Of a stretch of DNA of 23,409 nucleotides, positions 1 through 21,306 are shown in pieces. How positions within the stretch are numbered: the first letter of the stretch is position 1; each line of letters begins with the position of its first letter. Source of the DNA: Cyanobium sp. (lineage in GTDB: Bacteria > Cyanobacteriota > Cyanobacteriia > PCC-6307 > Cyanobiaceae); NCBI GenBank assembly GCA_044369475.1, contig JBIPLV010000020.1:1-23409 (forward strand). Direction: 5' to 3'. The position numbers were made by a program, and so were the translations under genes. The notes beneath the pieces are model-generated. The model was not told where the DNA came from, did no database searches, and was given only the letters and a program-made list of their open reading frames with translations.

Positions 1-2850
1 ACGATCACGACGCTCCCGGATGGTGCGTTTGGAGAGATCGGATTGCTGGATGCCAATGCCAACAATGCTTTTGTGCCGGTGACGGCAGGACAGCAGCTGA
101 GCCTGGTGCAGATGCAGGGGCTGCAGTTCCGGGCGGCTGCGGATGCCTATGGCCCTGGCACCTTCACCTATGCGGTGAGCGATGGGGCAGCCGCTCAGGG
201 CGGCCTGACGACCACGGAGACCTTCACCATCAATGTGCTGGCGGTGAACGACGCCCCGGTGCGCACCTCGCCGGAGCTCGCGCCGCGTGTGATCAGCAAC
301 GCCGAGTTGGTTGTCGACCGCGCCACCAACCTGTATCAGACGGTGAGCGTTGGTCTGACCAACCTGCTGTTCAGTGCCGGTGGCGACGCCCTCGAGCAGG
401 CGAGCCAGCAGCTCCTTTACCGCATCTCCCGGCTTCCGAATGCCGCCATCGGCCAGATGTTGCTGGCCGATGGCACCGTGGTGCTCAATGGCAACACCTA
501 CACCCTGCCCCAGCTGCGTGATCTGATCTTCAGGCCAGCCCGCGGCGTCGAGACGCTCACGGCTGCCGAACGGCTCGGTGAACTGCGCCTGGAGATGACC
601 GATACCCCGTCGCCGGGAAGTGATCCGGCTCGCACCACGGAGCTCAAGGTGCCGATCCTGATCGACACCAACAAGGCTTCAGGCCGTGCCGGCGTGCGCA
701 TTGCCGGGCTCACCAGCGATGAGCAAGCGATTCAGGCGGTGCTGCGTCTGGATCCCACTAACCCAGACACCGGATTCCAGGATCCTGCCGTTGGCAACGG
801 CAACGGCAACGCCCCCTCAGCTGGCCAGGCCAAGGGGCTCAACACCTCTCTCTACAGCCAGCTGGAAAGCAACAACCCTCTCTATCTGGCGGCCATCGGC
901 GGCAACAAGATTCTTGATGGCCAGGAGGTTAACTACGCGCCTTCAGCGGTGCCATTCCTGTTTGATCTGCCAATCACCGCCTGGACCCCCACCAGCTGGG
1001 CCAAGGGTGGCCCTGATCCCACCCACACCCTGCTGTATCGCTCAACCCTCTCAGGCCAGCTGCGCAGCAACGACGAGCTCACCTACACGGTGATTGATAC
1101 GGTGACTGACCCCGCACCGGCGGGATTCACGCTCTCCAGCAGTGGGGCCTGGAGTTTTGATCCCCTCCATACTGCCTACGCCGCCGGGCTGACCACCGAA
1201 GGGGCCACCCAACAGGTTACCGCGCGCTACATGGCCGGCACCCGCCCGGGCGAGATCACCATCGAATTGCGCCGCACCGCCACCACCGTGATCGCCGAAG
1301 TGGTGGGCAACGTCGGCGCCACGACCACCAGCCGCGGTGATTGGATCGCCGCCAACCCCGAAGGCCGCGACAAAGATCGCTACTTTAAATATGTCTCTGA
1401 ATACGTGCTCACCTCTTACGGTGCGCTCGACACCGGCGAGAGAAACGAGGCTGGCGAGAAGATCTTTGCCTGGAGTGGGCCAATCGAGACCGCTGATGGC
1501 CAGCCGATGCGCCAGCTCGATGGAACCCCGATCACCACGGCTGGGTATTACGACTTCACCCGGCGAGGCGGCGCGGGTGACGGAGTGGAGTTCATTTATG
1601 AATCCATCACCGAGAAAGGCAAGCAAGTAAATTACATTATTGGCATGCGCTTCTTCCTGCGCAACAATGTATTTGGAGATAACGATCCTTCACGCACCAA
1701 CATCCGCGATCCAGGGGCCCCGGTCACAATCCTGCGGGAGCTTGGCGTAATTACGAATATCATGCAAAACGAAATCACTCGAATTGGCGCGTCTTCGATT
1801 GGGGCGTCTTCGATTACCACCATGCCTCTAATCAATGCGCCGTTACTAAATCTGGCGACCACCAACCTCACTCAGCAAAGCATCGCTGCCACAGCCAATG
1901 CGCTCTTGGCCTTAGGTTCAGCTGGCAGCCAATCCAGCGAAGCAACACCTCAGGCCCTTGGAGCCGAGAATGGCAATGGCGCGGGAATTGGCGACAGCAG
2001 CAATGATGGTGCGAATGATGGCGCGGCGGCAGGAGGCCGAGGCCAGGGTGACGGAGGTGACTCCACAAACGACCATCTGGGCAAAGGGGCTGGTGATCGC
2101 GGCCTCAGGCTTGATCCTCAGCTGACGCTGGCCACCATCAACACAGCCCCAGACTCCCTACTAGACAGCCTGAGCGATACGAGCATCCTTGGCGCCAACC
2201 TGCTTGATGCCCTGACGCTCGGAGCGGGTCTCCTGTATCTGCTCTATGGGCCGAGGTCGATTGACCAGAGCAGGCGCGGACTTCGCGGGTGGTTGGCCGG
2301 TGCTGCTAATGCGGGCCGTCGCCCATCCGCAGCTGCAGCAGAGCAGCAGGTGCTGTCCCTGCTGCTAACCCGTCAGAACGATGGATCCCTGAGCATCGTG
2401 GCGGCTCAGATCACCATGAGCGGCGTCAAGCTGCTAGCCCAGCACGATTTGGCATCGGCAGCTGGCGATGAAGCCGCACTTCAACAGGCTCTGAGCGAGC
2501 TGATGACGAACTTGAACCAGAAAGGTGCCCACTACGATCTTCTGTTGCTCGATGGACAGCTTGATCGGGCTGTTAGCGCGGCTGAGCAAAACATTGCCGG
2601 CCTGGCGAAGCAGCGGCTTCCCTTGGCCCCAGCTGAGCTGTCCGCTGCGGTAGCTGCAGCAAGCCCGTCTGAATTTGCCGCCCTTCAGCAGTGGCTCAAC
2701 AAACCGTCTCTGATCCTGCCGCCAGAGTCGCCGGTTGCCCAATCATTGGCGCGTCGTCGTGCGGCCTATGGCCAAATCCTGGCCACTGAGCAAGCACAGA
2801 TGGCAGCGATGATCGAGCTGAGCCTGGCGCTGACCTGGTCCCAACGCTGA
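1..2850 (+). CDS. C-terminal ~950 aa of a very large repetitive secreted/cell-surface protein (cadherin-like/VCBS-type repeats); the 5' end lies outside the window
   Basis: Frame 1 is open from nt 1; the track 'M' at 43 is a TTG, so the gene continues upstream. Two copies of a giant-adhesin-type repeat are present (..LPDGAFGEIGLLD..GTFTYAVSDG..TFTINVLAVNDAPV; ..RISRLPNAAIGQMLLADGTVVL..). An 'AGFTLSSSGAWSFDP' VCBS-like segment follows, then a beta-sandwich terminal motif GDNDPSRTNIRDPGAPV (~1666..1725). After these come a Q/S/A linker, a Gly/Asp-rich stretch (~1961..2103), a hydrophobic helix LLDALTLGAGLLYLLYGP (~2185..2253) and a ~195-aa Ala/Leu/Gln-rich helical C-terminus. Stop codon at 2848..2850. 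Confidence 0.75.
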   Translation, partial: TITTLPDGAFGEIGLLDANANNAFVPVTAGQQLSLVQMQGLQFRAAADAYGPGTFTYAVSDGAAAQGGLTTTETFTINVLAVNDAPVRTSPELAPRVISNAELVVDRATNLYQTVSVGLTNLLFSAGGDALEQASQQLLYRISRLPNAAIGQMLLADGTVVLNGNTYTLPQLRDLIFRPARGVETLTAAERLGELRLEMTDTPSPGSDPARTTELKVPILIDTNKASGRAGVRIAGLTSDEQAIQAVLRLDPTNPDTGFQDPAVGNGNGNAPSAGQAKGLNTSLYSQLESNNPLYLAAIGGNKILDGQEVNYAPSAVPFLFDLPITAWTPTSWAKGGPDPTHTLLYRSTLSGQLRSNDELTYTVIDTVTDPAPAGFTLSSSGAWSFDPLHTAYAAGLTTEGATQQVTARYMAGTRPGEITIELRRTATTVIAEVVGNVGATTTSRGDWIAANPEGRDKDRYFKYVSEYVLTSYGALDTGERNEAGEKIFAWSGPIETADGQPMRQLDGTPITTAGYYDFTRRGGAGDGVEFIYESITEKGKQVNYIIGMRFFLRNNVFGDNDPSRTNIRDPGAPVTILRELGVITNIMQNEITRIGASSIGASSITTMPLINAPLLNLATTNLTQQSIAATANALLALGSAGSQSSEATPQALGAENGNGAGIGDSSNDGANDGAAAGGRGQGDGGDSTNDHLGKGAGDRGLRLDPQLTLATINTAPDSLLDSLSDTSILGANLLDALTLGAGLLYLLYGPRSIDQSRRGLRGWLAGAANAGRRPSAAAAEQQVLSLLLTRQNDGSLSIVAAQITMSGVKLLAQHDLASAAGDEAALQQALSELMTNLNQKGAHYDLLLLDGQLDRAVSAAEQNIAGLAKQRLPLAPAELSAAVAAASPSEFAALQQWLNKPSLILPPESPVAQSLARRRAAYGQILATEQAQMAAMIELSLALTWSQR
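1783..1812 (+). repeat. 15-bp in-frame tandem duplication inside the giant protein gene (IGASS IGASS)
   Basis: attggcgcgtcttcg / attggggcgtcttcg, two adjacent units with 1 mismatch, located in a locally AT-richer patch (about 1620..1900). Confidence 0.8.
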
Positions 2851-2863
2851 GCACCTACCGAGC

Positions 2864-3343
2864 TCAACGGCAGCGCTGGTCGAGAGCGACGATCACCATT
2901 GGTATCGCACGTGGGTGGGATTGCATCGAAAACGCCTCACGCTCAACTTCAAAACTGACAGTTCGGTAGTTCATGTAAAGCAGGCCGCTGATTTCACGCT
3001 CGATCTTGTGGTCAAGATCAATGCTCCAACCAATCGGCTTGAGGCGACCTTTGGGGCAGCCCTGGGCGGCATGCACCGCTTCATGAATCAAGGTGGCGCG
3101 CACAATGCCCAGTTCGATGCTGATCGGTGCAATCCAAATGCGCCGCTTCCTACTATCCGTTAATCCATAGGCACCTTGCAGCGGTGGCTTCTCAAATGTC
3201 ACTCGGTAGCGAGCTCGCTTAAGGGCAGCGAGCAGGGGTTGCAGCTCGACAGGTATCGCTGGTGCAGCAGCACGGGCAACTGGCAGCGACATTGGCAACA
3301 CCAGAAGCAACAGCAGCCGCGTCAACAGAAAAAGAGCGCTCAT
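2864..3343 (-). CDS. Small secreted HExxH protein (putative zinc metallopeptidase-like), last gene of the operon
   Basis: The ATG at 3343..3341 overlaps the upstream stop (caATGAgc). It yields a classic signal peptide, MSALFLLTRLLLLLVLPMSLPVARA/AAP. The motif LIHEAVHAAQGC is of the HExxHxxQ type and is reminiscent of DUF4157-like metallopeptidase domains. The longer ATG at 3403 would lie 64 nt inside the upstream gene and would bury the signal peptide. Confidence 0.55.
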   Translation of the reverse strand: MSALFLLTRLLLLLVLPMSLPVARAAAPAIPVELQPLLAALKRARYRVTFEKPPLQGAYGLTDSRKRRIWIAPISIELGIVRATLIHEAVHAAQGCPKGRLKPIGWSIDLDHKIEREISGLLYMNYRTVSFEVEREAFSMQSHPRAIPMVIVALDQRCR

Positions 3344-4014
3344 TGCACGGTCAGACTCCGGCCGGCAGTGCTCCAGAAGTTGACAGGTTTGTCCGCATAC
3401 CATGGCTCCCAGCCCAGGCGCACACCGTGCTGTTGAGCCTTGGCCTTGATGGTCCGATACACGCTGAAGCCGTCGCTTTCGACCACCACAAAGACGGATT
3501 GCTTGTTGCGCGCCATCGTCGCCATCGTGCGATCAAGCCAGTCGCTGCCACCCTTGAGATCCGCCGCTGCCACCGTGGGAGGGCCCACACTCTGGAGACT
3601 GCCCTGCGTGTGACTCACACGCACAAGGATCGGCCCCACCTGCTGCTGGCGCATCCAGTCATCCAACGCAGCGTTGCACTGCTGCTCAGCCACGCCCTGA
3701 AGAGTCGTACAGCGTTTGACGGCCGCTGCCCGTTCGCGGTCGATCTGCACCATCTGATTGACCGCGGGTTGCAGAGACCAAATCCCTCTGGCATTCGCCT
3801 GCAGCAAATAAAAATCCTGCTGCGACTTACGGGCCATCGGAGCCTGAATGTTGAGGCTTCCAGCCGCCGCAAAGACACTCATCAATGAGGTAATGAGGGC
3901 GAGCACACCAACCACGTTGGTCAGCGTATCGAGCAAGCCGACGTCATCGCTCATAAGCCGCTGACCCTGCTGACGGTGATGCCGTCTCAACAGGAGCAAC
4001 AAAGCATTGCTCAT
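3340..4014 (-). CDS. ExbD/TolR-like membrane protein, paralogue 2 (enlarged periplasmic domain)
   Basis: The ATG at 4014..4012 overlaps the upstream TGA (ccATGAgc). It has a single N-terminal TM with an Asp in ExbD position (VGLLDTLTNVVGVLALITSLMSVF). The C-terminus has an ExbD-like layout (SVFVVVESDGFSVYRTIKAKAQQHGVRLGWEPW). It shares the terminal signature LGWEPW / LGYEP with the neighbouring paralogue. Confidence 0.55.
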   Translation of the reverse strand: MSNALLLLLRRHHRQQGQRLMSDDVGLLDTLTNVVGVLALITSLMSVFAAAGSLNIQAPMARKSQQDFYLLQANARGIWSLQPAVNQMVQIDRERAAAVKRCTTLQGVAEQQCNAALDDWMRQQQVGPILVRVSHTQGSLQSVGPPTVAAADLKGGSDWLDRTMATMARNKQSVFVVVESDGFSVYRTIKAKAQQHGVRLGWEPWYADKPVNFWSTAGRSLTVQ

Positions 4015-4484
4015 GGCATTTCGGCGCCAGACGTCGCTGGCGGTGGCTGCACGGTCCACTGGGGATCAAGAGGCTCATACCCAAGCGTGATGCCCTTGGC
4101 TTCGGCCTGGGAACGCACCAGATGGAACTCGGGATAGGTGCTTGGCTTCACGCCGATCACCAGATACTGCGGTGTGCTGGCTTTGGCGATACGATCCAGA
4201 AAAGCGGCCCATTGCGGGCTCGCAATCGTGGTGCGCTCTTGGCGGCCATCCGCCAATAAATCCAACGTACCGTTCCCCTGCAGCAGCACATAGTTGGCCA
4301 CCTTGCCCTGGTTGTTGCCACCGCTGCCACTGGGGATAAATTGAACAGCCTGTCCACCCGGTTTGATCTGCAGAGCGATAATCCCGATCAACAGAGTCTG
4401 CACACCGATCGTTGCTGCCATGATATTCATGAACGCAAACAGATCAACGCCCACAGTCGTTCTCATGCGAAGTCGGCGTGCCAT
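4011..4484 (-). CDS. ExbD/TolR-like membrane protein, paralogue 1
   Basis: The ATG at 4484..4482 shares 1 nt with the upstream TGA (cgcTGATGgca); the track start at 4499 is a TTG. The N-terminal TM carries the conserved Asp (TVGVDLFAFMNIMAATIGV; compare E. coli ExbD TPFIDVMLVLL). The periplasmic part has the ExbD layout (YLVIGVKPSTYPEFHLVRSQAEAKGITLGYEP). Confidence 0.6.
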   Translation of the reverse strand: MARRLRMRTTVGVDLFAFMNIMAATIGVQTLLIGIIALQIKPGGQAVQFIPSGSGGNNQGKVANYVLLQGNGTLDLLADGRQERTTIASPQWAAFLDRIAKASTPQYLVIGVKPSTYPEFHLVRSQAEAKGITLGYEPLDPQWTVQPPPATSGAEMP

Positions 4485-5776
4485 CAGCGCCAGGGCCAAC
4501 GACGCTGCGGGCGGCTCAGCGGCAACTGTTCAATCCGTTGCAACTGAGCGATCAGCTGTTCGATAGAACGGCGCAACTCAATGCTGGCCTTGAGACTGGT
4601 GAGCTCCTCGCCAAGGACCCCACTGAGGGTGCTGGCACTCTTCAACTCACGCAGCAACGGCTGGAGCTGCTGCAAAGAATGGTTGAGCTCTAGGGCGGCA
4701 CCATCCATGCTGCTACGGATGATCTGGGCTTGCTCCTGCAGACTCAGGCGTGCTTCTGCAACACCCTCCACCGAGTCACGCACCAAAGCAGTGAGTGGGC
4801 TGAGCTTGGCCAGGGCAGCTTCGGTGAGCTGTTCGGCATAACGCTGAGCCGGTGATACCAACACAGAGGGATCGGGGAGGTGCTGCTCAAAAGCGTCGTT
4901 GATCAGGGCCGCGAGTTGACTGGATTGAAGATCGAGAGGTCCCGGCAGTGGAGCACCGGGAGACTCACCCATCGGGCTGAGCACCAGCACCGCATCCCGA
5001 ACGCGACCATCAATGGCATTCAGCAGCTTCTCTTCACGACGCTCGACACCGTTCATGGGTATCGCCAGCAGAACCGAGATCACCAAAGCCAGATAAGTGG
5101 TATCAAAAGCGGTACCCAGTCCGCCAGTCACCTTGGTCAGACCAGCTTTGAGGCCATCGACGTTGTCGGCATTGCCCAACACCCCTTCAAAGGAGCCAAC
5201 AGCCTGAGACATGCCGATCACGGTGCCGATGAACCCGAGGATCGGAATAGCCCACAGCAGCACCCTCACAAGGCTGTAGCTGTTCTGCAGGGCCAGTTGG
5301 TAGAGATCACTGTCTGCATCAGCTGCGCGCTCCAACTGAAACGATGACTGACTCGTTCGCCACACCGACAACAGCCGCAGCAAGCGCTTGCCCACCAACG
5401 ACGACGATTGTTCAGCTCGCTGGGCTGCGGCCTCGATATCACCAGTCCTCAGCAGCGTTGTGATGCTCTGATCGAGCTGTTGCAGTTTGCGCTGCTGTCG
5501 TGCCAGCAACTGCCACTTACTGACCAGAAAGGCGCCAATCATGCCGGCAGCAACCAAACAGACAACCTGGGTTGGGCCGCGCTGGTGCAGGAACAAGTGC
5601 AAGGGCGCACCGACAGGAGACGTGCTCGCCCAAAGCAAAAATCCGATAAGACCACCAATTGCCCCCCAGCGGCTTATGCGGGGATCCAGGTCACTGCCCG
5701 ATCCAAGGTTTGCAGACTCCCCTGGTGACGGGGTCACTGAGGTGGTGTCGGTGAAAGGTGGGAAATTAGCGATCAT
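4484..5776 (-). CDS. MotA/TolQ/ExbB-family ion-channel protein with a long (~175 aa) C-terminal helical tail
   Basis: Family signature helices are present: WAIPILGFIGTVIGMSQAV (compare ExbB APFVGLFGTVWGIMNSF) and GGLGTAFDTTYLALVISVLLAIPMNG (compare GIAEALLATAIGLVAAIPAVVIYN). Hydrophobic segments lie upstream (WGAIGGLIGFLLWA; VVCLVAAGMIGAFLV), followed by a charged loop. After the last TM come a Pro-rich linker and a Leu/Gln/Glu-rich helical tail (about 4487..5011). The first ATG is at 5776; the track start at 5797 is a TTG. Confidence 0.75.
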   Translation of the reverse strand: MIANFPPFTDTTSVTPSPGESANLGSGSDLDPRISRWGAIGGLIGFLLWASTSPVGAPLHLFLHQRGPTQVVCLVAAGMIGAFLVSKWQLLARQQRKLQQLDQSITTLLRTGDIEAAAQRAEQSSSLVGKRLLRLLSVWRTSQSSFQLERAADADSDLYQLALQNSYSLVRVLLWAIPILGFIGTVIGMSQAVGSFEGVLGNADNVDGLKAGLTKVTGGLGTAFDTTYLALVISVLLAIPMNGVERREEKLLNAIDGRVRDAVLVLSPMGESPGAPLPGPLDLQSSQLAALINDAFEQHLPDPSVLVSPAQRYAEQLTEAALAKLSPLTALVRDSVEGVAEARLSLQEQAQIIRSSMDGAALELNHSLQQLQPLLRELKSASTLSGVLGEELTSLKASIELRRSIEQLIAQLQRIEQLPLSRPQRRWPWR

Positions 5777-5811
5777 GGCGCTGAACCTGAGCAACAAGAA
5801 TCAAAAAAGGG

Positions 5812-6156
5812 TCAGCGCTCCTCGCTGCCATCCCACTCCTTCCACTCCACCTCGACATCGCCGAGTTGGCTAACAGCTGGCGGTGGAATCCGGCTGAGCA
5901 GATCGTTGGGGAGACCCAGCCTTTGAAAGACCGACTGGCGCTGCTCCACAGACATCCCAGAAAACGAACGAACCACATCACGAATTCGGTGCTCATTATA
6001 AACTAGCTTCATCAATTCGACCTGATCCTGTGCCTCAAGCTCACGAAACCATTGCATAAAGCGCTCGATCCTGCTTTGCAGATCAGTCGCGGTCATTTCC
6101 GTGGTCTTTTCCATGGTCTTTTCAGTGGTCATTTCAGTGGTCTTTTCAGTGGTCAT
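5812..6156 (-). CDS. Small acidic soluble protein of unknown function with an N-terminal TTEK/TTEM tandem repeat
   Basis: This 114-aa ORF sits between hlyD and the ExbB-like gene on the same strand. It has no TM or signal peptide. The N-terminus MTTEKTTEMTTEKTMEKTTEMT is encoded by a 12-bp tandem array. The remainder looks helical (FMQWFRELEAQDQVELMKLVY..) and the C-terminus is acidic. No family was recognised. Confidence 0.5.
   Translation of the reverse strand: MTTEKTTEMTTEKTMEKTTEMTATDLQSRIERFMQWFRELEAQDQVELMKLVYNEHRIRDVVRSFSGMSVEQRQSVFQRLGLPNDLLSRIPPPAVSQLGDVEVEWKEWDGSEER
6091..6156 (-). repeat. 12-bp tandem repeat, 5.5 units, at the 5' end of the small ORF
   Basis: Plus-strand units GGTC(A/T)TTTC(C/A)(G/A)T at 6091, 6103, 6115, 6127 and 6139, plus a half unit at 6151..6156. 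The array is in frame and generates several in-frame ATG codons. Confidence 0.9.
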
Positions 6157-6218
6157 TGGCGGTATTCCTGATGAGAAGATGAGGGAGAGCTAGGAAGCAT
6201 TTGGCACACGAGTGAGTT

Positions 6219-7367
6219 CTATTCGCTATTGGAGCGAATGCGTCGTAGAGAATCAAACATCTTGTCAGTAGCATCAGTTAGCAGTGTGATCACGCGCTTC
6301 TCGCGCAGAATTAGATTCACTTGCACGCTCTGGCCAGAGCTCACAGGAAACCGTTGGGATCCCCGGCTCAGATAATCGCGATCCAGCTTCACGTAGGCCG
6401 GAAAGCGTGGTTGGGGGTTTTGCTCGTCGGGAGGCAATGGCAGGGTTCCAATCATTTTGAGCGAGCCTGAAATGGATCCAAACTGGGTGAATGGAAAGGT
6501 ATCAACTCGAATCTGGGCCGGCATGCCCTGCTTCACAAAGCCCACATCCCGGTTGCTGAGATAGACCTTGGCTTCCAGAACCCCACCAGGCACAATCTTC
6601 GCCAGGGTTTCACCAGCGCTAGCGGCATAGCCAGGGCTGGAGGGCACCAGGCCAAACACCACCCCTGAGAGCGGTGCTCGCAGCACCTCCTTGTCCTGAG
6701 TATCCCTAACCTCGGTCAGCTGGCGGTCGAGGTCGGCCAGCTCCCGCAGCGATTCTTGCTTCATCTTCAGGAGCTGGGCTTCAACCTCCTGAAGGTTGGA
6801 TCGCGACTGAGCGATTTCGGATTCCAGCTGCTCAACCTTGTTACGCTGCTGCAGCAGCTGCAATTTCTGGATGCCGCCCTGGGAGGCGAGGGGGGCGATC
6901 TGGCTATAGATGAGTTTTTCAGTGCGAAGCAGCCGCGTTAAACCATCAGTGCGCTCCCTCAGACTTTGGGCTTTGGCTTCGATTGAGCGAGTCTCTTCAT
7001 TAAAACGGGTGCGCTCAAGCTGAATCTGTTCCCTGAGGGTGTCGGCCCGCTTTCCGGACACGTCGGGATCAAGCCGCAGTAGCTCCTGATTAGCGCTGAC
7101 CTGCTGGCCCTCCCTGACAAGAATTTGCTTCACAACCCCAGCAAAAGGAGCCTTAATCGGCCGCTCAGCACCCAGCGGCTGTAGCTCACCAGGAGCGAGC
7201 ACCACTTCATCTATTTTGGCAAAGATGGCATAGATGAAAGCCAAACATGCCGTACCGATGATGGTCCAGATCAGAGCCTGACTCCAAACAGGGGTGGGCT
7301 TGAGTCGCACCTCCTGAGGATTGACTGGTCGGACCGTCAGAGCTGAGCTCATCGCTTTGTTGGCCAT
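6219..7367 (-). CDS. HlyD-family membrane fusion protein (T1SS periplasmic adaptor)
   Basis: It has an N-terminal TM (WSQALIWTIIGTACLAFIYAIFA) and a lipoyl/hairpin entry (APFAGVVKQILVREGQQVSANQELLRLD). A long coiled coil follows, then a beta-barrel C-terminus (VLRAPLSGVV..; MPAQIRVDTFP). The ATG lies 3 nt after the ABC gene stop. Confidence 0.9.
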   Translation of the reverse strand: MANKAMSSALTVRPVNPQEVRLKPTPVWSQALIWTIIGTACLAFIYAIFAKIDEVVLAPGELQPLGAERPIKAPFAGVVKQILVREGQQVSANQELLRLDPDVSGKRADTLREQIQLERTRFNEETRSIEAKAQSLRERTDGLTRLLRTEKLIYSQIAPLASQGGIQKLQLLQQRNKVEQLESEIAQSRSNLQEVEAQLLKMKQESLRELADLDRQLTEVRDTQDKEVLRAPLSGVVFGLVPSSPGYAASAGETLAKIVPGGVLEAKVYLSNRDVGFVKQGMPAQIRVDTFPFTQFGSISGSLKMIGTLPLPPDEQNPQPRFPAYVKLDRDYLSRGSQRFPVSSGQSVQVNLILREKRVITLLTDATDKMFDSLRRIRSNSE

Positions 7368-7370
7368 GGC

Positions 7371-10300
7371 TCAGCCCACCTCCTGCTGGTGATAGAGGGT
7401 GGCGTAGCGCCCGTCGAGCTGCATCAGCTCCGTGTGGTTGCCGATCTCCACCAACATCCCCTGATCCATCACCAGAATCATGTCTGCATGACGCAGGGAG
7501 GCCAGCCGGTGGGTGATAAAGCACACGGTCTGGTTCTGGTAAGCCTCCTTCAGGTTGGCGGTCAAGCGTCGTTCAGTGTCCACATCAAGAGCACTTGTTG
7601 CTTCATCAAGCACCAGGAGGCGAGGTTTACGCAGAATCATGCGCGCGATCGCGAGCCGTTGCCGCTGGCCGCCACTCAAGCCCGCACCCCTCTCACCCAC
7701 GGAGCTGGTGTAGCCACCCGGCATGGCCTGAATGAAATCGTGGGCGCATGCGATCTGGGCTGCTTGGCACACGTCCTCAAAGCTGGCATCGGGCCGAGTC
7801 AAGGCGATGTTGGAGAGGATCGAGCCGTCAAACAACAGACTGTCCTGGGGCACCACACCGATCTGGGCCCTCAGAGAATAAAGATCAACCTTGCTGATGT
7901 CGTTTCCGTCGATGCGGATCGTGCCCTCGAGTGGTTCGTAGAGGCGCGTAATCAGCTTCAACAAAGTGCTCTTGCCAGAACCGCTGCTGCCCACCACGCC
8001 CACAAATGATCCCGCGGGGATCTTGAAGTTGATATTGCTAAGCTGAAGACCGCCCTGGCTGCCAAAACGAAAGCTCACACCGTTGTATTCCACTTCTCCC
8101 AAAATTGGGGGAATGGGCGGTTTCTGTTCTCCCATGATTTCGAGCTCTTCGGGATAATCAACAATGTCCGCAAGGCGCTCGAGCGAAAGGGCTGTTTCCT
8201 GGAAGTTCTGCCAGAGGTTGGCCAACCGCAGCAGTGGATTGGTGACATAACTAGCCAGAATTCGGAAGGCAATCAGCTGCCCGAGGGTCAGCTCACCCTT
8301 GAGCACCAGCGAGGCTCCCACCCAGAGCACCAGCAGGCCGGAAAGTTGCTCCAGAAACTGGCTGGCTGAGCCCGCCGCCGTGCTCGTGATCACATTGCGG
8401 AAGCCTGACTGGATCTGACTTCCATACAGTTGCTGCCAGCGCCAGCGGCTGTGCAGCTCCATGCTCTGACCCTTCACCGTTTCCATACCGCCCAGAGTCT
8501 CAACCAGATGGCTCTGCACCCGCGCGTTGGCCTCGGCCTGATCGCGCAGCTGCTTGCGAATCAGTGGCGCGCTGAGCAGGGTCACACCCACGAAAAATGG
8601 CACCACAGCCAAAGCCCAGAAGGTGAGCTGAATCGAGTAGAGAAGCATCACGGCGATGTAGATCACCGCGAACACAGCATCAAGGATCACGGTGAGCGCC
8701 GTACCCGTCAGGAAGCGGCGGATCTTCTCAAGCTCATTGATGCGGCTACTGACCTCTCCAACCGGCCGATCAGCGAAGTAGCCGAGCGGCAACCGCAAGA
8801 GGTGATCAATGATCGTCGCCCCCAGGGTGATATCGATGCGGTTCGTCGTATCCGAAAACAGATAGGTGCGCAGCGAGGCCAGCACTCCCTGAGCCAGGGC
8901 CATGCCCACCAGCAAGGTGCCAAGCACATTGAGGGTGCTGATGTTGCCCTGGCTGATTACAGCATCGATGATTTGCTGAATCAGCAGAGGATTCAGCAAG
9001 GCAAACAGCTGCACAAAGAAGCTCGCCACCAACACCTGCACCAGCACGGCCTTGTGCTGTTGCAGAGCCGGCAGGAACCAGGCCAGGCCGAAGCGCTTCT
9101 TTGGGGTGCGAGCGCTGCGCTCGACACACAGCACATCGAGCAGGTTGTCGTCATTCCAACCTGTCAGGGATCGGGCCGCCACCAATCCCTGGCCGGCCAC
9201 AGGATCACCCAGCATCAGCTGACCGCTTTGATCAATCTCCCAGATCACCACCGGTCCACTCGTGCCCAGAGCCAGCGCAGGCAAGGGCAGGCGTCTGAGC
9301 TGTGTTTCATTGACCTGCATGGGTGAGGCCCGCAGCCCCATCAGATCGGCGATCGCCGCCAACTGCAGCAGCCCGATGCCTTGGCCCTGGCTGTCGCGCG
9401 CGAGCTGGTCTTCAAGGATGCGGCGAAGCACATCGCGCCTGAAAGGGAGGTCAAATTGCCGGGCCAACATGCGCAGACAAGCCAGCGGCACGTCCACCGG
9501 CCCTTCACCGCTGAGGTGGGGGTAGCTTCCGTCGTCCCCAAGGCGGCCATACCAATCTTCAAGAGCCTGCTGCTGTTGCTCGATCGCCACAATTGCGGTC
9601 GAGCTCTCCTGCCAGTCAGGTTCGAGCAGTTCAGCTTCAGCAGGCTGGGCATCCCGTGCGCCAGCGTCTGGTGACACCACCAGTGCAGCAGGTCGTGCGA
9701 TGGGCGGGCTCGCAGCCTGTTTGGCTAGAAGCCGGGCCGGCAGTTTCCCGCGCACATGGAGTTTGAGCGGACCCAGGATTTCCTCGCCGGGCTTGAGCCC
9801 CGCCACGTTGCTGCTGCTCAGCAACCAGGGCCCCCAGTCAGCATCAAAGCTGTGCTCCCCGGGTGGAACCAGCAGAACCTGTTGACGTTCAGAGGATTCG
9901 GTGAGCTGGTTGCTCGCCCAGTCGCGCAGAACCAACCGCTCCGGGGTACGCGGCGAGGGGCTCGCAGCGGCAACGGCATACAACTCCTCGAGGTTGGGCT
10001 GTGCAAGGGCTCGCGACAGCACCTCATCAGCGGATACGGCTTCGAGAAATGTGTGCTGAGGCATCAGCCACAGCTGGCTGGGCAGGGCAGCAGCCACGGC
10101 CTGCCCGGTGACCCCGCGCAGCAACCCCACCTGGCCCACCATGTCGCCAGGGCCGAGCCGCTGCAAAGTGAACGGCTCGTTGCGTTCATCGAGACCCAAT
10201 AGTCTGAGTTGGCCCTGAGCGACCAGGGCGACGCCGGGCGGAAGCGCGGCGTAGTCATAGAGCTTCTGGCCAGGGCGCAGCTTCAGGGCTTGCAGAGAAT

Positions 10301-10394
10301 CGGCCAGCTGCGCCTGCGTCGTTTCGGGTAGTTGAGAAAACGGTGCCCACGCCCTCAGGACCCGAAGGGCCAAAGTGAGTTGCAGCGGGGGCAC
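7371..10394 (-). CDS. T1SS-type ABC exporter (1007 aa): N-terminal cNMP-binding-like domain, C39-like domain, 6-TM domain and NBD
   Basis: Walker A GVVGSSGSGKSTLLKLI, signature LSGGQRQRLAIARMIL, Walker B LLVLDEATSALD and H-loop FITHRL are all present. The N-terminus has a beta-roll of cNMP-binding type (LRPGQKLYDY..GVALVAQGQLRLLG..LGPGDMVGQVGLLRG). The C39-like segment is PVDVPLACLRMLARQFDL. The start codon is GTG at 10394. Confidence 0.92.
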   Translation of the reverse strand: MPPLQLTLALRVLRAWAPFSQLPETTQAQLADSLQALKLRPGQKLYDYAALPPGVALVAQGQLRLLGLDERNEPFTLQRLGPGDMVGQVGLLRGVTGQAVAAALPSQLWLMPQHTFLEAVSADEVLSRALAQPNLEELYAVAAASPSPRTPERLVLRDWASNQLTESSERQQVLLVPPGEHSFDADWGPWLLSSSNVAGLKPGEEILGPLKLHVRGKLPARLLAKQAASPPIARPAALVVSPDAGARDAQPAEAELLEPDWQESSTAIVAIEQQQQALEDWYGRLGDDGSYPHLSGEGPVDVPLACLRMLARQFDLPFRRDVLRRILEDQLARDSQGQGIGLLQLAAIADLMGLRASPMQVNETQLRRLPLPALALGTSGPVVIWEIDQSGQLMLGDPVAGQGLVAARSLTGWNDDNLLDVLCVERSARTPKKRFGLAWFLPALQQHKAVLVQVLVASFFVQLFALLNPLLIQQIIDAVISQGNISTLNVLGTLLVGMALAQGVLASLRTYLFSDTTNRIDITLGATIIDHLLRLPLGYFADRPVGEVSSRINELEKIRRFLTGTALTVILDAVFAVIYIAVMLLYSIQLTFWALAVVPFFVGVTLLSAPLIRKQLRDQAEANARVQSHLVETLGGMETVKGQSMELHSRWRWQQLYGSQIQSGFRNVITSTAAGSASQFLEQLSGLLVLWVGASLVLKGELTLGQLIAFRILASYVTNPLLRLANLWQNFQETALSLERLADIVDYPEELEIMGEQKPPIPPILGEVEYNGVSFRFGSQGGLQLSNINFKIPAGSFVGVVGSSGSGKSTLLKLITRLYEPLEGTIRIDGNDISKVDLYSLRAQIGVVPQDSLLFDGSILSNIALTRPDASFEDVCQAAQIACAHDFIQAMPGGYTSSVGERGAGLSGGQRQRLAIARMILRKPRLLVLDEATSALDVDTERRLTANLKEAYQNQTVCFITHRLASLRHADMILVMDQGMLVEIGNHTELMQLDGRYATLYHQQEVG

Positions 10395-10424
10395 TTCTGC
10401 TGTGAAACAAAGTTCGGTGGCACC

Positions 10425-11153
10425 TTAAAGGACTTGTCGCGATTCGGGCGGAATGACGTCTTGATTCAACAATTGATATCCCAGCTCCAGGAGAAGTCTT
10501 CTGCGCATCTGTTGATCGAGGATGGCAGGCTTGCTCTCTTCAAGCCGAACAAGGATCCAGCCCTGCTGAATCGGCTTGGGGGGCCAGAGCTGGCCGGGCT
10601 GGCTCACCCGCAGCAATTGAGCTAACCCCTCTGGCAACTCCGACAGGGCGACAGGTCCCTGCTCTCCTCGGGGGCCGAGGTCGGGCTGAGCTGGTAGCTG
10701 TTGCAACAATGCCTCAAAACTAATTTCGCCTTCTTTAATCTGCATGTAGAGCTCCGAGCAGAGCTCCTGCTCAGCAATCGGCAGAACTGTGTAAGTCACT
10801 TCATCAAGGTCTTTCTTCCGCTGAAGGAAATAGCTCGCCAGTTTTTTGCCAAAATGCTGCTCGCACACCTGCAGCCAGAGGTGATGGCGCCGGGCACGGG
10901 TCACGAGCTCGGCCTCTCCAACACCCTCCTGCAACATCCATTGCTGCACGGCTGCTGGTGCATGGAGTCCAAGATCGGCCAGGTAGACCTGAACTTGAGC
11001 CGCAAGCTCCGCTTCACTGAGGGACTCGACTGAGCCAACAACGTCGGCTAGCCAGCGCTGGCGTTTCAGCTCAAGCTGCACCCGCCCCGCCAGGCCAAGC
11101 GCTTGCAAGAGTTCCATCGACAAGGCTGTCGAAGATGCTGAGGATTGGCTCAC
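10425..11153 (-). CDS. Parvulin/PpiC-type peptidyl-prolyl isomerase-like protein (cyanobacterial T1SS-associated type)
   Basis: The C-terminal half fits a parvulin layout (YTVLPIAEQELCSELYMQIKEGEISFEALLQQ..GPVALSELPEGLAQLL..PGQLWPPKPIQQGWILVRLEE). No signal peptide is seen. From memory, similar genes sit next to cNMP/peptidase-domain ABC plus HlyD pairs in cyanobacteria. The start is GTG at 11153; an alternative ATG is at 11117. Confidence 0.5.
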   Translation of the reverse strand: MSQSSASSTALSMELLQALGLAGRVQLELKRQRWLADVVGSVESLSEAELAAQVQVYLADLGLHAPAAVQQWMLQEGVGEAELVTRARRHHLWLQVCEQHFGKKLASYFLQRKKDLDEVTYTVLPIAEQELCSELYMQIKEGEISFEALLQQLPAQPDLGPRGEQGPVALSELPEGLAQLLRVSQPGQLWPPKPIQQGWILVRLEESKPAILDQQMRRRLLLELGYQLLNQDVIPPESRQVL

Positions 11154-11174
11154 TGGCAGTCACGGCGGGTCCGG

Positions 11175-12191
11175 TCAAGCAACCAGATACCCCTCCAGCA
11201 TCCGCGATTGGGCCCGCACCCCCTCGAGCGCCTTGCGCTCCAGGTTGCGCGTCTTGTCCCGGCTCATGCCCAGATCCTTGGCGATGGCGCTGAGGCTCAT
11301 CGGTTCGGAGCGGCCCGGAGCCTGATCGCAGGGGATGCCGTAGCGCATCTTCAGCACCCGACCCTGCAGCTCCGGCAGCTGCTCCAGCAGTGCCCGCAGA
11401 TCTCCTTTCAAACACTCCCCATCCACCAGGTCCTCCGGCAGCTCCGCATCGCCCGCCAGCAGGTCCAGCAGCTCGGTGTCGTCGCCATCGCCCACCTTCG
11501 TCTCCAGGCTCACCGGTTGCCGCGCACGGCACAGCAGGTCCTTCACCTCCTCTTCCGGCAGCTCCACCGCTTCCGCCAGTTCCGTCACCGTCGGGGTGCG
11601 CCCCAGCAGCTGGCTCAGTTCCCGCTGACCCTTCTTCAGCTTGTTGAGCGTTTCGGTGATGTGGATCGGCAGCCGGATCGTGCGGCTCTTCTCCGCAATC
11701 GCCCGTGTGATCCCCTGCCGGATCCACCAATACGCATACGTCGAAAACTTGTAGCCCCGCGTTGGGTCGAACTTCTCCACCCCACGCACCAAACCAATGG
11801 TCCCCTCCTGGATCAGGTCCAGCAGCTCCATGTTCCGCCGCGTGTACTTCTTGGCCACGCTCACCACCAGCCGCAGGTTTGCCGCCACCATCCGCTCCTT
11901 GGCCCGCCGACCCGCCTGCAAACGCTTTTTCAGCAGTGGTGCACTCAGCCCCGCCGCCTGGGCCAGTTCCGCCTGGCTCGGCTTGCTCCCCATCCGGCTC
12001 TCCAGCTCACCCTCCAGCTCCTCCAGCGCCACCAGCTCCTGCACCTGACGCCCCAGCGTGATCTCCTGCTCGTGGCTCAGCAGCGGCACACGCCCGATGT
12101 CACGCAGGTAGCTGCGCACCAGATCGCCGCCGCCCTGAGCCGAGGAGCTTTCCGAGCCTGAACTGGAGCCAAGAACGGGCAGGGCGGGCAT
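11175..12191 (-). CDS. RNA polymerase sigma-70 family factor, group 2 (RpoD/SigA-like)
   Basis: Region 1.2 [24 protein letters not shown], region 2 [61 protein letters not shown], region 3 [16 protein letters not shown] and region 4 [23 protein letters not shown] are all present. At 338 aa it is too short for the primary sigma factor. Confidence 0.95.
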
Positions 12192-12203
12192 GGGGAGGGG
12201 CGG

Positions 12204-12227
12204 TTACGAAACTCTTTTGTTTCGTAA
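12204..12227. promoter_or_regulatory. Perfect 9-bp inverted repeat with a 6-nt spacer in the divergent sigma / pseudouridine synthase intergenic region
   Basis: TTACGAAAC (12204..12212), tctttt, GTTTCGTAA (12219..12227). It lies 13 nt upstream of the sigma ATG (12191) and 28 nt upstream of the + strand ATG (12255). It is AT-rich relative to its surroundings. Confidence 0.45.
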
Positions 12228-12254
12228 ACCTACCATTTTTTCCCACACGGCAGC

Positions 12255-13888: not shown

Positions 13889-13897
13889 GCCCAGGCC

Positions 13898-16653: not shown

Positions 16654-16753
16654 AACCTATCGGGTGCCAGCCGCAGAGGCGAGGTCCCACCAGGGTGTTC
16701 AAACAGGGGAAGCCCGGCAGGTGTAGGCCAAAGTGTGTTGCCGCCCAGCCCCG

Positions 16754-17725: not shown

Positions 17726-17744
17726 TCCCGTAGTCCCGTAGCTC
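17721..17744. repeat. 8-bp tandem repeat x3 filling the gap between two convergent stop codons
   Basis: cgtagtcc cgtagtcc cgtagctc. It places TAG in all three + frames. The LCP stop is at 17723..17725 and the minus-strand gene stop at 17743..17745. Confidence 0.8.
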
Positions 17745-18258: not shown

Positions 18259-18326
18259 GGATGTTTGCACTAGGGGGGCGGGCACGCTTCTACGATCGGA
18301 TTTCAGCCGACGCGTCCGCGCCCGCC

Positions 18327-19334: not shown

Positions 19335-19354
19335 AACCTGTTTCGCCGACACCC

Positions 19355-21237: not shown

Positions 21238-21306
21238 CGGCCAAGCTCACCTGATATCAATGCTATCGCCACTGCCCGCGCCATTGCCCGACAGGGGCTT
21301 GCGGCC

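What the first reader, a model, noticed from the sequence alone, without database searches (positions are those of the whole stretch)
2864..11153. Single minus-strand operon fusing a type I secretion system to an ExbB/ExbD-type ion-driven motor and a secreted HExxH protein, convergent with a giant surface protein gene
**Seen directly.** Eight co-oriented genes have very short or negative junctions:
- PPIase-like stop at 10425, ABC GTG at 10394 (30-nt gap).
- ABC stop at 7371..7373, HlyD ATG at 7367 (3-nt gap).
- HlyD stop at 6219, small repeat ORF ATG at 6156 (62-nt gap).
- Small ORF stop at 5812, ExbB-like ATG at 5776 (35-nt gap).
- ExbB-like to ExbD-like-1: TGATG overlap at 4486..4482.
- ExbD-like-1 to ExbD-like-2: ATGA overlap at 4014..4011.
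- ExbD-like-2 to HExxH gene: ATGA overlap at 3343..3340.
- The operon ends 13 nt from the stop of the convergent giant repeat-protein gene (2850).

**Established knowledge.**
- MotAB, ExbBD/TolQR, GldLM, AglRQS and ZorAB are 5:2-type ion-motive-force motors that deliver work to the envelope.
- Myxococcus AglR plus two TolR-like subunits (AglQ/AglS) and Bacteroidetes GldLM move surface adhesins.
- T1SS (ABC + HlyD + TolC) export giant adhesins such as LapA.

**Inference.** One ExbB-like and two ExbD-like genes are translationally coupled downstream of a T1SS whose likely cargo is the adjacent giant protein. This suggests a machine in which ion flux powers movement, tensioning, release or remodelling of a T1SS-exported surface protein. 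I am not aware of such an arrangement being described.

In marine Synechococcus, non-flagellar swimming is known to need giant/S-layer surface proteins (SwmA/SwmB) and ABC/MFP export genes. It was reported to be ion-motive-force dependent, with no motor identified. A locus like this would be a rational motor candidate, although nothing here shows that this organism swims.
Basis: partly seen in the sequence, partly recalled or inferred. Interest (0 to 1): 0.9.

Follow-up and report, generated by a model that had tools for sequence, protein, structure and literature searches.

The report
Secretion system with built-in ion motor
A gene cluster kept intact across small aquatic cyanobacteria joins an exporter for very large surface proteins to a divergent ion-driven membrane motor and a periplasmic protease; it resembles the Salmonella SPI-4 adhesin system, so it is a new variant of a known design, not an unknown kind of machine.

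Summary
All eight minus-strand genes and every junction are exactly as described, and the operon ends 13 nt from a convergent large-protein gene.

Domain searches confirm:
- a HlyB-type ABC exporter (a domain resembling a cyclic-nucleotide-binding domain, an inactive C39-like domain, the membrane domain and the ATPase);
- a HlyD adaptor;
- a MotA/ExbB-family protein with a 190-residue cytoplasmic tail.

The two "ExbD-like" genes match no family model. They are paralogues with ExbD/TolR topology. Only the second keeps the invariant membrane aspartate. The first has E. coli TolR as its best fold match.

In 67 picocyanobacterial loci, freshwater to open ocean, the gene order is essentially invariant (for example small gene → MotA gene in 61 of 61). 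This argues for one functional unit. The motor triad also occurs alone in Planctomycetota and Verrucomicrobiota, so it looks like a module recruited to this secretion system.

The claim that the arrangement is undescribed is wrong. Salmonella SPI-4 (SiiCDF, the SiiAB proton channel and the giant adhesin SiiE) is a published analogue, although it is not homologous in the periplasmic parts.

The swimming idea is unsupported. Only nine cyanobacterial species representatives carry the motor. I could not confirm whether strain WH8102 or other swimming clade III strains are among them.

Verdict: new variant of a known kind, moderately interesting.

The parts
1..2850 (+). 3' end of the convergent large surface-protein gene, the probable T1SS cargo. 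The frame is open to base 1, so at least 949 aa are seen. The last ~260 aa form a conserved C-terminal module.
   Evidence: Frame open from base 1; stop at 2848-2850. Weak tandem-95 repeat and Big_9 hits. The C-terminal module always lies at the extreme C-terminus of homologues, and only 70 cluster representatives exist among 1.8 billion. Conserved motifs NLLDALxLGxGxLYxLY and QAxMAxLxELSxA. Homologues range from 1,334 to 10,749 aa, and MIT S9452 has a further 21,365-aa gene behind the 1,334-aa one.
2864..3343 (-). Exported HExxH protein (159 aa from the ATG at 3343), a putative periplasmic zinc metallopeptidase.
   Evidence: Hydrophobic N-terminal signal-like segment. Invariant HEAVH and two invariant Cys in six homologues. 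Sub-threshold DUF6782 'putative metallopeptidase' hit, 4e-4. ATGA overlap with D2.
3340..4014 (-). D2, TolR/ExbD-topology subunit (224 aa). N-in single membrane helix with an invariant Asp29, and a periplasmic domain with two invariant Cys.
   Evidence: Alignment A3. AF2 model, pLDDT 73, with the periplasmic domain above 85. Paralogue of D1 (hhalign 86%, E 5e-6). TolR is only rank 20 in Foldseek. No Pfam hit.
4011..4484 (-). D1, TolR/ExbD-topology subunit (157 aa). N-in single membrane helix that has Asn where the canonical Asp would be.
   Evidence: Alignments A2 and A4. AF2 model, pLDDT 67. Best PDB fold match is E. coli TolR 5by4: probability 1.00, E 3.3e-3, TM-score 0.60 normalised to TolR. 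No Pfam hit.
4484..5776 (-). MotA/ExbB-family subunit (430 aa from the ATG at 5776). Three membrane helices and a ~190-aa conserved, predicted cytoplasmic, helical C-terminal tail.
   Evidence: PF01618 at 1e-10, residues 147-261. Membrane helices at 67-85, 169-187 and 223-241. Invariant GFIGTV(I/L)GM and GLGTAFDTT motifs and a conserved tail. Weak ZorA hits only. No NCBIfam ExbB/TolQ/MotA hit.
5812..6156 (-). Small soluble protein of unknown function. The conserved ~90-aa core ends in GDVEVEWxEWD. The TTEK repeat at the N-terminus is peculiar to this genome, and the real start may be the ATG at 6096.
   Evidence: Alignment A6. No membrane helix or signal peptide. No significant family hit. Followed by the MotA-like gene in 61 of 61 loci.
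6219..7367 (-). HlyD-family membrane fusion protein of the T1SS.
   Evidence: HlyD_3 9e-21 and TIGR01843 4e-49.
7371..10394 (-). HlyB-type ABC exporter (1007 aa) made of a domain resembling a cyclic-nucleotide-binding domain, a conserved linker, an inactive C39-like domain, the membrane domain and the ATPase.
   Evidence: TIGR01846, 686 bits. Best solved relative is HlyB, 9e-37, against 1e-6 for bacteriocin exporters. No conserved Cys at the C39 catalytic position.
10425..11153 (-). Cytoplasmic parvulin/PpiC-like protein (242 aa), first gene of the conserved cluster; possibly a cargo chaperone.
   Evidence: Rotamase_2 5.7e-5 (below cut-off) and TIGR04500 2.6e-6. No signal peptide. Precedes the ABC gene in 30 of 30 loci.
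11175..12191 (-). Sigma-70 family factor gene, 21 nt upstream and co-oriented. It is a flanking gene that may be co-transcribed and is not part of the invariant cluster.
   Evidence: Sigma70 regions r1.2, r2, r3 and r4. 21-nt gap. Adjacent in NB0720_010 and several metagenomic loci, but 0.7-2.4 kb away or absent in others.

Best explanation
This is a HlyB/HlyD-type type I secretion system (T1SS) dedicated to one or more very large, non-RTX, cadherin/VCBS-like surface proteins. These proteins share a conserved C-terminal module.

The T1SS carries three kinds of accessory part:
- **A membrane motor or ion channel of the MotA/ExbB superfamily.** It probably consists of a pentamer of the 430-aa A subunit around a D1·D2 heterodimer in which only D2 carries the proton- or ion-binding Asp.
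- **A Sec-exported HExxH metallopeptidase.**
- **Two cytoplasmic helpers:** a PpiC-like protein and a 90-aa protein.

By analogy with Salmonella SiiAB, ion flow through A5·D1·D2 is converted into a conformational change or torque that acts on the secretion apparatus. The periplasmic TolR-like domains could couple to HlyD, peptidoglycan or the cargo. The predicted cytoplasmic tail of A could couple to the large N-terminal domains of the ABC protein or to the small protein. The outcome would be control over whether the huge cargo is threaded, held on the surface or let go. The periplasmic protease would trim or release it, a role analogous to LapG.

Shown here: the gene content, domain identities, topology, conserved residues and invariant synteny.

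Inferred: the 5:1:1 stoichiometry, ion conduction, the physical coupling to the T1SS, the cargo assignment and the protease's role.
For: - Exact junctions with three start/stop overlaps.
- T1SS identity, with an inactive C39-like domain as in HlyB-type exporters of large C-terminal-signal substrates.
- MotA_ExbB domain with conserved Thr-containing membrane motifs.
- D1 and D2 are paralogues with N-in single membrane helices, an invariant Asp in D2 and two invariant Cys in D2's predicted periplasmic domain. D1's best fold match is TolR.
- Invariant order in 67 loci from freshwater, estuarine and oceanic samples, while D1, D2, the HExxH protein and the cargo diverge to 30-40% identity.
- In cultured strains the neighbour is a 10,749-aa protein (NB0720_010), or a 1,334-aa plus a 21,365-aa protein (MIT S9452).
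- The two tandem cargo paralogues examined end in the same C-terminal module. The two complete cargo N-termini recovered have a conserved motif and do not look like Sec signal peptides (read by eye, no predictor run).
- Published precedent that a MotAB-like proton channel is a T1SS subunit controlling retention of a giant adhesin.
Against: - No experiment or transcript data are available.
- D1 and D2 have no sequence-level match to ExbD, TolR or MotB. D2's TolR fold match is weak.
- The family profile of the A subunit finds no solved ExbB, TolQ, MotA or ZorA chain.
- The same motor triad occurs without any T1SS in about 70 Planctomycetota/Verrucomicrobiota loci and in one cyanobacterial MAG. 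The motor is therefore not intrinsically a secretion part.
- No TolC-like outer-membrane gene lies in the cluster.
- The cargo shows no RTX repeats.
- The cargo's N-terminus, which would be the protease target if it works like LapG, was not examined.
Confidence: 0.62

Rival explanations
1. The motor triad plus the HExxH protein is an independent envelope module (for example a Tol-like or unknown periplasmic force transducer). It travels in the same genomic island as the T1SS but does not act on it.
For: The triad exists alone, with no conserved neighbour, in Planctomycetota and Verrucomicrobiota and in cyanobacterial MAG L009. A 35-nt gap with a weak terminator-like hairpin separates the small gene from the MotA-like gene.
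Against: Small gene → MotA-like gene in 61 of 61 loci, and HExxH gene → convergent cargo gene in 28 of 28, despite deep divergence. In the scan seeded on the small gene, that gene was never found without the motor genes next to it where flank allowed. Terminator-like sites are not more frequent than in shuffled sequence.
Confidence: 0.13
2. The motor moves or tensions the giant surface protein to generate non-flagellar swimming or surface motility, as the reader suggested (SwmB-like).
For: The motor for Synechococcus swimming is unidentified in the literature I could search. Some metagenome annotators name homologues of the cargo 'SwmB-cell surface protein required for swimming motility'. The cargo in NB0720_010 (10,749 aa) is about the size of SwmB (10,791 aa).
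Against: The motif scan of 185,579 species-representative genomes returned only 9 cyanobacterial loci, and none of the 9 record titles names WH8102. The motifs used are invariant even in 30%-identical relatives from other phyla. Swimming is reported only in clade III, whereas the one carrier I could assign to a clade, NB0720_010, is subcluster 5.2. The SwmB name is a transferred annotation, not a tested homology.
Confidence: 0.07
3. A Zorya-like sensor: a ZorA-like tailed motor that detects envelope perturbation (phage or grazer) and signals through its cytoplasmic tail.
For: Weak ZorA1 and ZorA2 hits (4e-4, 5e-3). A long predicted cytoplasmic helical tail on the A subunit. Location in a low-GC island, next to surface proteins that others suggest act in defence against grazers.
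Against: No ZorB, ZorC or ZorD hit and no other defence-system hit of note. The tail is about 190 aa, whereas the ZorA models are 461-683 positions long overall. The partners are T1SS genes in every locus.
Confidence: 0.05
4. A canonical Ton/Tol-type ExbB-ExbD energiser for outer-membrane uptake that merely lies next to a T1SS.
For: JGI annotators call the A subunit 'biopolymer transport protein ExbB/TolQ'. The Pfam MotA_ExbB domain is present.
Against: No tonB, tolA or TonB-dependent receptor in the window or related loci. No NCBIfam ExbB/TolQ hit. No hit to solved ExbB or TolQ with the family profile. D1 and D2 have no ExbD Pfam hit.
Confidence: 0.02

Closest known systems
Salmonella enterica SPI-4 system: T1SS SiiC/SiiD/SiiF, proton channel SiiA/SiiB and giant adhesin SiiE
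   Same: One locus combines a HlyB/HlyD-type T1SS, its giant repetitive adhesin and an inner-membrane MotAB/ExbBD-like channel with an essential membrane Asp. In SPI-4 the channel conducts protons and controls adhesion and surface retention of the cargo.
   Different: - SiiA has an OmpA/MotB-like peptidoglycan-binding domain. D1 and D2 show no OmpA-like hit, and D1's fold resembles TolR.
- Here there are two different B-type subunits, and only one has the Asp.
- The A subunit has a long predicted cytoplasmic tail.
- The ABC protein has an extra cNMP-like N-terminal domain.
- A periplasmic HExxH protein, a PpiC-like protein and a small protein are added, and there is no outer-membrane gene in the locus.
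- The nearest relatives of the motor are Planctomycetota/Verrucomicrobiota triads, so the recruitment looks independent.
Uncharacterised Planctomycetota/Verrucomicrobiota 'tolQ-like plus two heterologous tolR-like' gene triads
   Same: Direct homologues. The A subunit is 30-43% identical, and it is followed by a D1-like and a D2-like gene in the same order. D2-like keeps the Asp (LLDxxTNVVG) and D1-like does not. PMC12204202 mentions tolQ-like plus paired tolR-like genes in this group.
   Different: - Those A subunits have an N-terminal zinc ribbon, and their D1/D2 proteins have long coiled-coil inserts.
- No T1SS, HExxH or small-protein gene is nearby, and there is no conserved neighbour at all.
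- I did not establish whether they are the same clusters as the vWA-linked ones in that paper.
Lap system of Pseudomonas (T1SS LapBCE, adhesin LapA, periplasmic protease LapG, c-di-GMP receptor LapD). This comparison is from my own knowledge of the system; no tool or paper was consulted.
   Same: A T1SS for a giant adhesin plus a dedicated periplasmic protease and a nucleotide-signal input. This could parallel the HExxH protein and the cNMP-like domain here.
   Different: - LapG is a cysteine protease, not an HExxH protein.
- There is no LapD homologue here, and the Lap system has no motor.
- The cNMP-like domain here has Gln or Tyr where I expected the phosphate-binding Arg, so ligand binding is doubtful (motif reading only).
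Zorya ZorAB
   Same: A MotA-family subunit with a long cytoplasmic helical tail that is used for something other than flagellar rotation; weak profile hits.
   Different: There are no ZorB, ZorC or ZorD equivalents, the tail is much shorter, and the context is secretion.

Membership tests
Type I secretion system (HlyB/HlyD type) | ABC exporter with an N-terminal C39-like domain, a membrane domain and a nucleotide-binding domain | tested here: met
   Pfam and NCBIfam. Best solved relative is HlyB, 9e-37. The catalytic Cys is absent, so the domain is an inactive C39-like domain.
Type I secretion system (HlyB/HlyD type) | HlyD-family membrane fusion protein encoded next to the ABC gene | tested here: met
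   HlyD_3 9e-21, TIGR01843 4e-49, 3-nt gap to the ABC gene.
Type I secretion system (HlyB/HlyD type) | TolC-like outer-membrane channel | tested here: not met
   None in the window or in the 67 related loci. In many T1SSs this gene lies elsewhere in the genome, which could not be checked here.
Type I secretion system (HlyB/HlyD type) | Cargo without a Sec signal, carrying a C-terminal secretion signal (often with RTX repeats) | tested here: inconclusive
   The neighbouring large proteins share a conserved C-terminal module. The complete ones start MSPLDRQYHDQL..., which does not look like a signal peptide. No RTX family hit. Secretion was not tested.
MotA/ExbB/TolQ-type 5:2 ion-driven motors | A subunit with the MotA_ExbB membrane domain and conserved pore-lining Thr | tested here: met
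   PF01618 at 1e-10. Invariant GFIGTV and GTAFDTT motifs in the second and third membrane helices.
MotA/ExbB/TolQ-type 5:2 ion-driven motors | B subunit with an N-in single membrane helix carrying the essential Asp | tested here: met
   D2 has an invariant Asp29 in LLDxLTNVVG, also present in the homologues from other phyla. D1 has Asn or Ser at that position, so at most one Asp per heterodimer.
MotA/ExbB/TolQ-type 5:2 ion-driven motors | Sequence membership of the B subunits in the ExbD/TolR or MotB families | tested here: not met
   No Pfam or NCBIfam hit. No PDB sequence hit.
MotA/ExbB/TolQ-type 5:2 ion-driven motors | TolR/ExbD-like periplasmic fold | tested here: inconclusive
MotA/ExbB/TolQ-type 5:2 ion-driven motors | 5:2 stoichiometry and ion conduction | not testable with these tools
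   Needs multimer modelling, cryo-EM or physiology.
Ton system (ExbB-ExbD-TonB with TonB-dependent receptors) | tonB or a TonB-dependent transporter as a conserved partner, and ExbB/ExbD equivalog hits | tested here: not met
   No such genes in the window or loci. No NCBIfam ExbB/ExbD hit.
SPI-4-type motor-assisted T1SS (SiiABCDEF) | T1SS, giant adhesin and MotAB-like channel in one locus | tested here: met
   Architecture shown; the precedent is documented.
SPI-4-type motor-assisted T1SS (SiiABCDEF) | Homology of the B subunit to SiiA (OmpA/MotB-like peptidoglycan-binding domain) | tested here: not met
   No OmpA-like hit in Pfam or among solved structures by sequence or fold.
Zorya anti-phage system | ZorA and ZorB together with ZorC/ZorD or ZorE | tested here: not met
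   Only weak ZorA hits and no other Zorya component.
Synechococcus clade III swimming apparatus (SwmA/SwmB) | Presence in swimming (clade III) strains, and cargo orthologous to SwmB | tested here: inconclusive
   The motif scan returned only 9 cyanobacterial species representatives, and no WH8102 record is among their titles. The SwmB label on cargo homologues is a transferred annotation. The WH8102 sequence and the McCarren and Brahamsha papers could not be read.

The most novel reading that the evidence does not exclude
The A5·D1·D2 unit may be a true rotary or force-generating motor that works mechanically on T1SS-anchored proteins of 1,300 to 21,000 residues. It might turn, pull or cycle them at the cell surface. 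That would make it a candidate engine for non-flagellar movement or for an actively moving anti-grazer coat in picocyanobacteria. The standalone triads in Planctomycetota and Verrucomicrobiota would then be the same engine driving other, unknown surface structures.
Probability: 0.07. Interest if true: 0.95.

Novelty: new variant of a known kind. Interest (0 to 1): 0.6.

Why it matters
Picocyanobacteria are among the most abundant phototrophs. Their giant surface proteins are thought to shape grazing, aggregation and, in one clade, swimming, yet nothing is known about how proteins of 10,000-20,000 residues are exported, held or shed.

This locus offers a defined, conserved nine-gene machine in cultured strains (NB0720_010, MIT S9452) in which those questions can be tested.

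It also appears to be a second, independent case of an ion-driven motor recruited to a T1SS. The first is Salmonella SiiAB, whose mechanism is still open. The motor here is unusual in two ways: a heterodimeric axle with a single Asp, and a tailed A subunit. Its closest relatives are an unstudied gene triad in Planctomycetota and Verrucomicrobiota.

Tried and rejected
**Searches that found nothing useful**
- Sequence profiles of D1 (with and without the homologues from other phyla), D2 and the A subunit against all PDB chains gave only coiled-coil noise or nothing.
The D1/TolR alignment did fall on the equivalent beta-alpha region.
- PADLOC gave only weak ZorA hits.
- Rfam and tRNA scans of the window were empty.
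- The promoter and terminator scan was not above shuffled expectation.
- A search for a conserved partner of the triad in Planctomycetota and Verrucomicrobiota found none.

**Unavailable resources**
- The papers defining the WH8102 motility clusters are not held. Searches for SYNW locus tags and for strain MIT S9452 found nothing useful. The supplements of the 2020 comparative-genomics paper did not list the swmB island genes.

**Ideas rejected**
- Bacteriocin or peptide exporter: rejected because the C39-like domain lacks the catalytic Cys and HlyB is by far the best match.
- Ton/Tol energiser: rejected because there are no partner genes and no family hits.
- That the convergent gene in this window is necessarily 'giant': rejected, because the closest homologue is 1,502 aa.

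Full report
**1. The observation**

The minus strand between 2864 and 11153 carries eight co-oriented ORFs at the stated coordinates.
- PPIase-like to ABC: 30 nt.
- ABC to HlyD: 3 nt.
- HlyD to small ORF: 62 nt.
- Small ORF to MotA-like: 35 nt.
- MotA-like to D1: 1-nt overlap (TGATG).
- D1 to D2: ATGA overlap.
- D2 to HExxH gene: ATGA overlap.

The HExxH gene stops at 2864. The convergent plus-strand gene stops at 2850, leaving 13 nt. That plus-strand frame is open to base 1, so only its last 949 codons are in the window.

The region 1-11,000 has about 59% G+C against about 69% for 11,000-23,409, so it looks like an island. The right flank holds ordinary core genes: RluB-like, HTH_25, MalQ, an FrhB-like protein, LytR, Prs, GHL10 and PepN. 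It contains no tonB or TonB-dependent receptor. A sigma-70 family gene ends 21 nt upstream of the first cluster gene.

**2. What the proteins are**

*ABC protein (1007 aa).* It has cNMP_binding, Peptidase_C39, ABC_membrane and ABC_tran domains, and scores 686 bits on the HlyB-type T1SS model TIGR01846. Its N-terminal half matches solved HlyB at 9e-37, against about 1e-6 for bacteriocin exporters. The position of the C39 catalytic Cys is Val, Ile, Ala or Glu in this protein and five homologues, and the only nearby Cys is not conserved. It is therefore an inactive C39-like domain, as in exporters of large substrates with C-terminal signals. This last step is a motif-based inference.

*HlyD protein.* It is a standard T1SS adaptor.

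*The 430-aa A subunit.* It has a MotA_ExbB domain (1e-10) covering its second and third membrane helices. It carries invariant GFIGTV(I/L)GM and GLGTAFDTT motifs and a conserved helical C-terminal tail of about 190 aa. The positive-inside pattern places that tail in the cytoplasm (my inference). It hits no NCBIfam ExbB, TolQ or MotA model and only weakly hits ZorA. Its family profile finds no solved 5:2 motor chain. It is a distant branch of the superfamily.

*D1 (157 aa) and D2 (224 aa).* Neither has any family hit.
- Both have a basic N-terminus followed by a single membrane helix.
- They are paralogues (hhalign 86%, E 5e-6).
- D2 has an invariant Asp29 in LLDxLTNVVG and two invariant Cys in the predicted periplasmic domain.
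- D1 has Asn at the corresponding position.
- The AF2 models are moderately confident in the globular domains.
- D1's best PDB fold match is E. coli TolR (probability 1.0, E 3e-3, TM-score 0.60). For D2, TolR ranks only 20th.

'ExbD/TolR-like' is thus supported by topology, position, the Asp and one fold match, but not by sequence.

*HExxH protein.* It has a signal-like N-terminus, an invariant HEAVH and two invariant Cys, plus a sub-threshold hit to a putative metallopeptidase family.

*Small protein and PpiC-like protein.* Both lack signal peptides. The TTEK repeat of the small protein is peculiar to this genome. The conserved core starts near the ATG at 6096.

**3. Conservation**

*Genome scan with the A subunit.* A motif scan of one genome per species (185,579 species) found nine cyanobacterial loci. 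Seven of these carry the gene set in the same order as far as each contig reaches, and the two longest (L001, L004) show the full PPIase-like, ABC, HlyD, small, A, D1, D2, HExxH and convergent large-protein series. One of the nine (L008) is too short to judge. One MAG (L009) has only A-D1-D2.

*Cultured carriers.*
- Synechococcus sp. NB0720_010 (subcluster 5.2) has the same cluster beside the same flanking genes as this window. Its neighbour is the 10,749-aa protein LY254_04120.
- In Synechococcus sp. MIT S9452 the neighbours are a 1,334-aa and a 21,365-aa protein.

*Metagenome scan seeded on the small gene.* This added 55 loci from lakes, estuaries and the open ocean.

*Tally over 67 loci.*

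| Gene pair | Next gene present / loci with room |
|---|---|
| PPIase-like → ABC | 30/30 |
| ABC → HlyD | 51/51 |
| HlyD → small | 60/60 |
| small → A | 61/61 |
| A → D1 | 48/48 |
| D1 → D2 | 42/43 |
| D2 → HExxH | 31/34 |
| HExxH → convergent protein | 28/28 |

Identities to the window proteins range from 68-96% for the ABC protein down to about 30% for D1, D2 and the cargo.

**4. The cargo**

- The last ~260 residues form a conserved module (NLLDALxLGxGxLYxLY ... QAxMAxLxELSxA). It always lies at the extreme C-terminus, and only 70 cluster representatives exist among 1.8 billion.
- In the closest relative (L001) the neighbouring gene is a complete 1,502-aa protein. It starts MSPLDRQYHDQL, which does not look like a signal peptide.
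- It is followed by a second large paralogue that ends in the same module.
- The cargo set therefore varies from about 1,300 to over 20,000 residues. The word 'giant' is not established for the gene in this window.
- No RTX family was detected.

**5. Relatives outside cyanobacteria**

About 70 loci from Planctomycetota and Verrucomicrobiota have an A homologue (30-43% identity, often with an N-terminal zinc ribbon). It is followed by a D1-like and then a D2-like gene. D2-like keeps the Asp; D1-like does not. No T1SS and no other conserved neighbour accompanies them. The triad is a mobile functional module of unknown role. [quoted passage not shown]

**6. Mechanism**

The best-supported reading is a T1SS for large surface proteins, equipped with an accessory ion-driven unit: A, probably pentameric, around a D1·D2 heterodimer with a single Asp. 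The design parallels Salmonella SPI-4. There the MotAB/ExbBD-like SiiAB channel is a T1SS subunit, conducts protons through SiiA Asp13, and governs adhesion and surface retention of the 595-kDa SiiE.

Possible coupling routes:
- The cytoplasmic tail of A could contact the large N-terminal domains of the ABC protein or the small protein.
- The periplasmic D1/D2 domains could contact HlyD, peptidoglycan or the cargo.
- The Sec-exported HExxH protein could process or release the cargo, analogous to LapG (analogy from my own knowledge).

Gene content, topology, conserved residues and synteny are shown. Stoichiometry, ion flow, physical coupling and the protease's role are inferred.

**7. Rival readings**

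- Independent envelope module that merely shares the island.
- Motility motor.
- Zorya-like sensor.
- Ton-type energiser. This one is excluded by the absence of partner genes and family hits.

The motility idea lacks positive evidence. The motor was found in only nine cyanobacterial species representatives, and no WH8102 record is among their titles, even though the search motifs are conserved even in relatives at 30% identity. Swimming is reported only in clade III. The label 'SwmB' on some cargo homologues is a transferred name. I could not read the WH8102 sequence or the papers that define its motility clusters, so a link between this T1SS half and those clusters remains untested.

**8. Novelty and verdict**

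I found no description of this cyanobacterial cluster in the held literature. Its genes are annotated as hypothetical or generically. The principle of a T1SS plus an ion-driven channel plus a giant adhesin is already known from SPI-4.

What is new:
- the heteromeric, single-Asp, TolR-like axle;
- the tailed A subunit;
- the added protease and cytoplasmic helpers;
- the kinship with the Planctomycetota/Verrucomicrobiota triad;
- the setting in globally abundant phototrophs.

I rate it a new variant of a known kind, with interest 0.6.

Noticed in passing
window 1-11150 versus 11150-23409: G+C rises from about 59% to about 69% at the upstream end of the cluster. The secretion/motor/cargo region therefore looks like a horizontally acquired island. 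It sits at the same place (beside the sigma-70 and RluB-like genes) in Synechococcus NB0720_010, and pepN is also nearby in MIT S9452.
   Followed up: partly
window 11175-12191 (-): A sigma-70 family gene ends only 21 nt upstream of the first cluster gene, in the same orientation. This adjacency recurs in NB0720_010 and several metagenomic loci, but not in all. It may co-transcribe with or regulate the cluster.
   Followed up: partly
L001:11113-19044 (-), L127:7193-13228 (-), L139:13051-21338 (-): The cargo is often two tandem genes: a 1,300-1,500-aa protein and a further large paralogue behind it. In L001 and L127 both end in the same conserved C-terminal module. In MIT S9452 the second gene encodes 21,365 residues, but its C-terminus was not examined.
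   Followed up: partly
window 10030-10280 (-), ABC residues 38-121: The cNMP-binding-like domain has Gln (Tyr in some homologues) where I expected the phosphate-binding Arg, and Gln, Asp, His or Tyr where I expected the Glu of the G-E motif. It may not bind cyclic nucleotides. This is a motif reading only.
   Followed up: no
window 6096-6156 (-): The TTEKTTEMTTEKTMEKTTEM repeat at the start of the small ORF is absent from all seven homologues. It is probably a genome-specific extension or lies upstream of the real start at 6096. It also produces the plus-strand terminator-like hits at 6086-6116.
   Followed up: yes
window 5813-5827 (-): A weak 5-bp hairpin followed by a T-run overlaps the stop of the small gene, in the 35-nt gap before the MotA-like gene. 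Terminator-like sites in the region are not more frequent than in shuffled sequence.
   Followed up: no
L010-L080, e.g. L037:9341-13176, L049:9572-12884: Planctomycetota and Verrucomicrobiota carry a standalone triad: a MotA/ExbB-like gene with a zinc ribbon, a D1-like gene and a D2-like gene. The D proteins have long coiled-coil inserts, and there is no conserved neighbour. Function unknown.
   Followed up: partly
L023:13361-19498 (+) and five related Pirellulaceae/Mariniblastus loci: A protein of about 2,000 aa with no Pfam domain lies directly downstream of the triad in this subgroup. It may be a large partner protein.
   Followed up: no
L009:9944-12425: A Prochlorococcaceae MAG has the A-D1-D2 triad at 30-38% identity with no T1SS within 10 kb upstream. 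A ComEC-like gene lies upstream of the triad, and the ORF downstream looks like a transposase (by eye, not searched). Here D1 carries an Asp at the canonical position.
   Followed up: no
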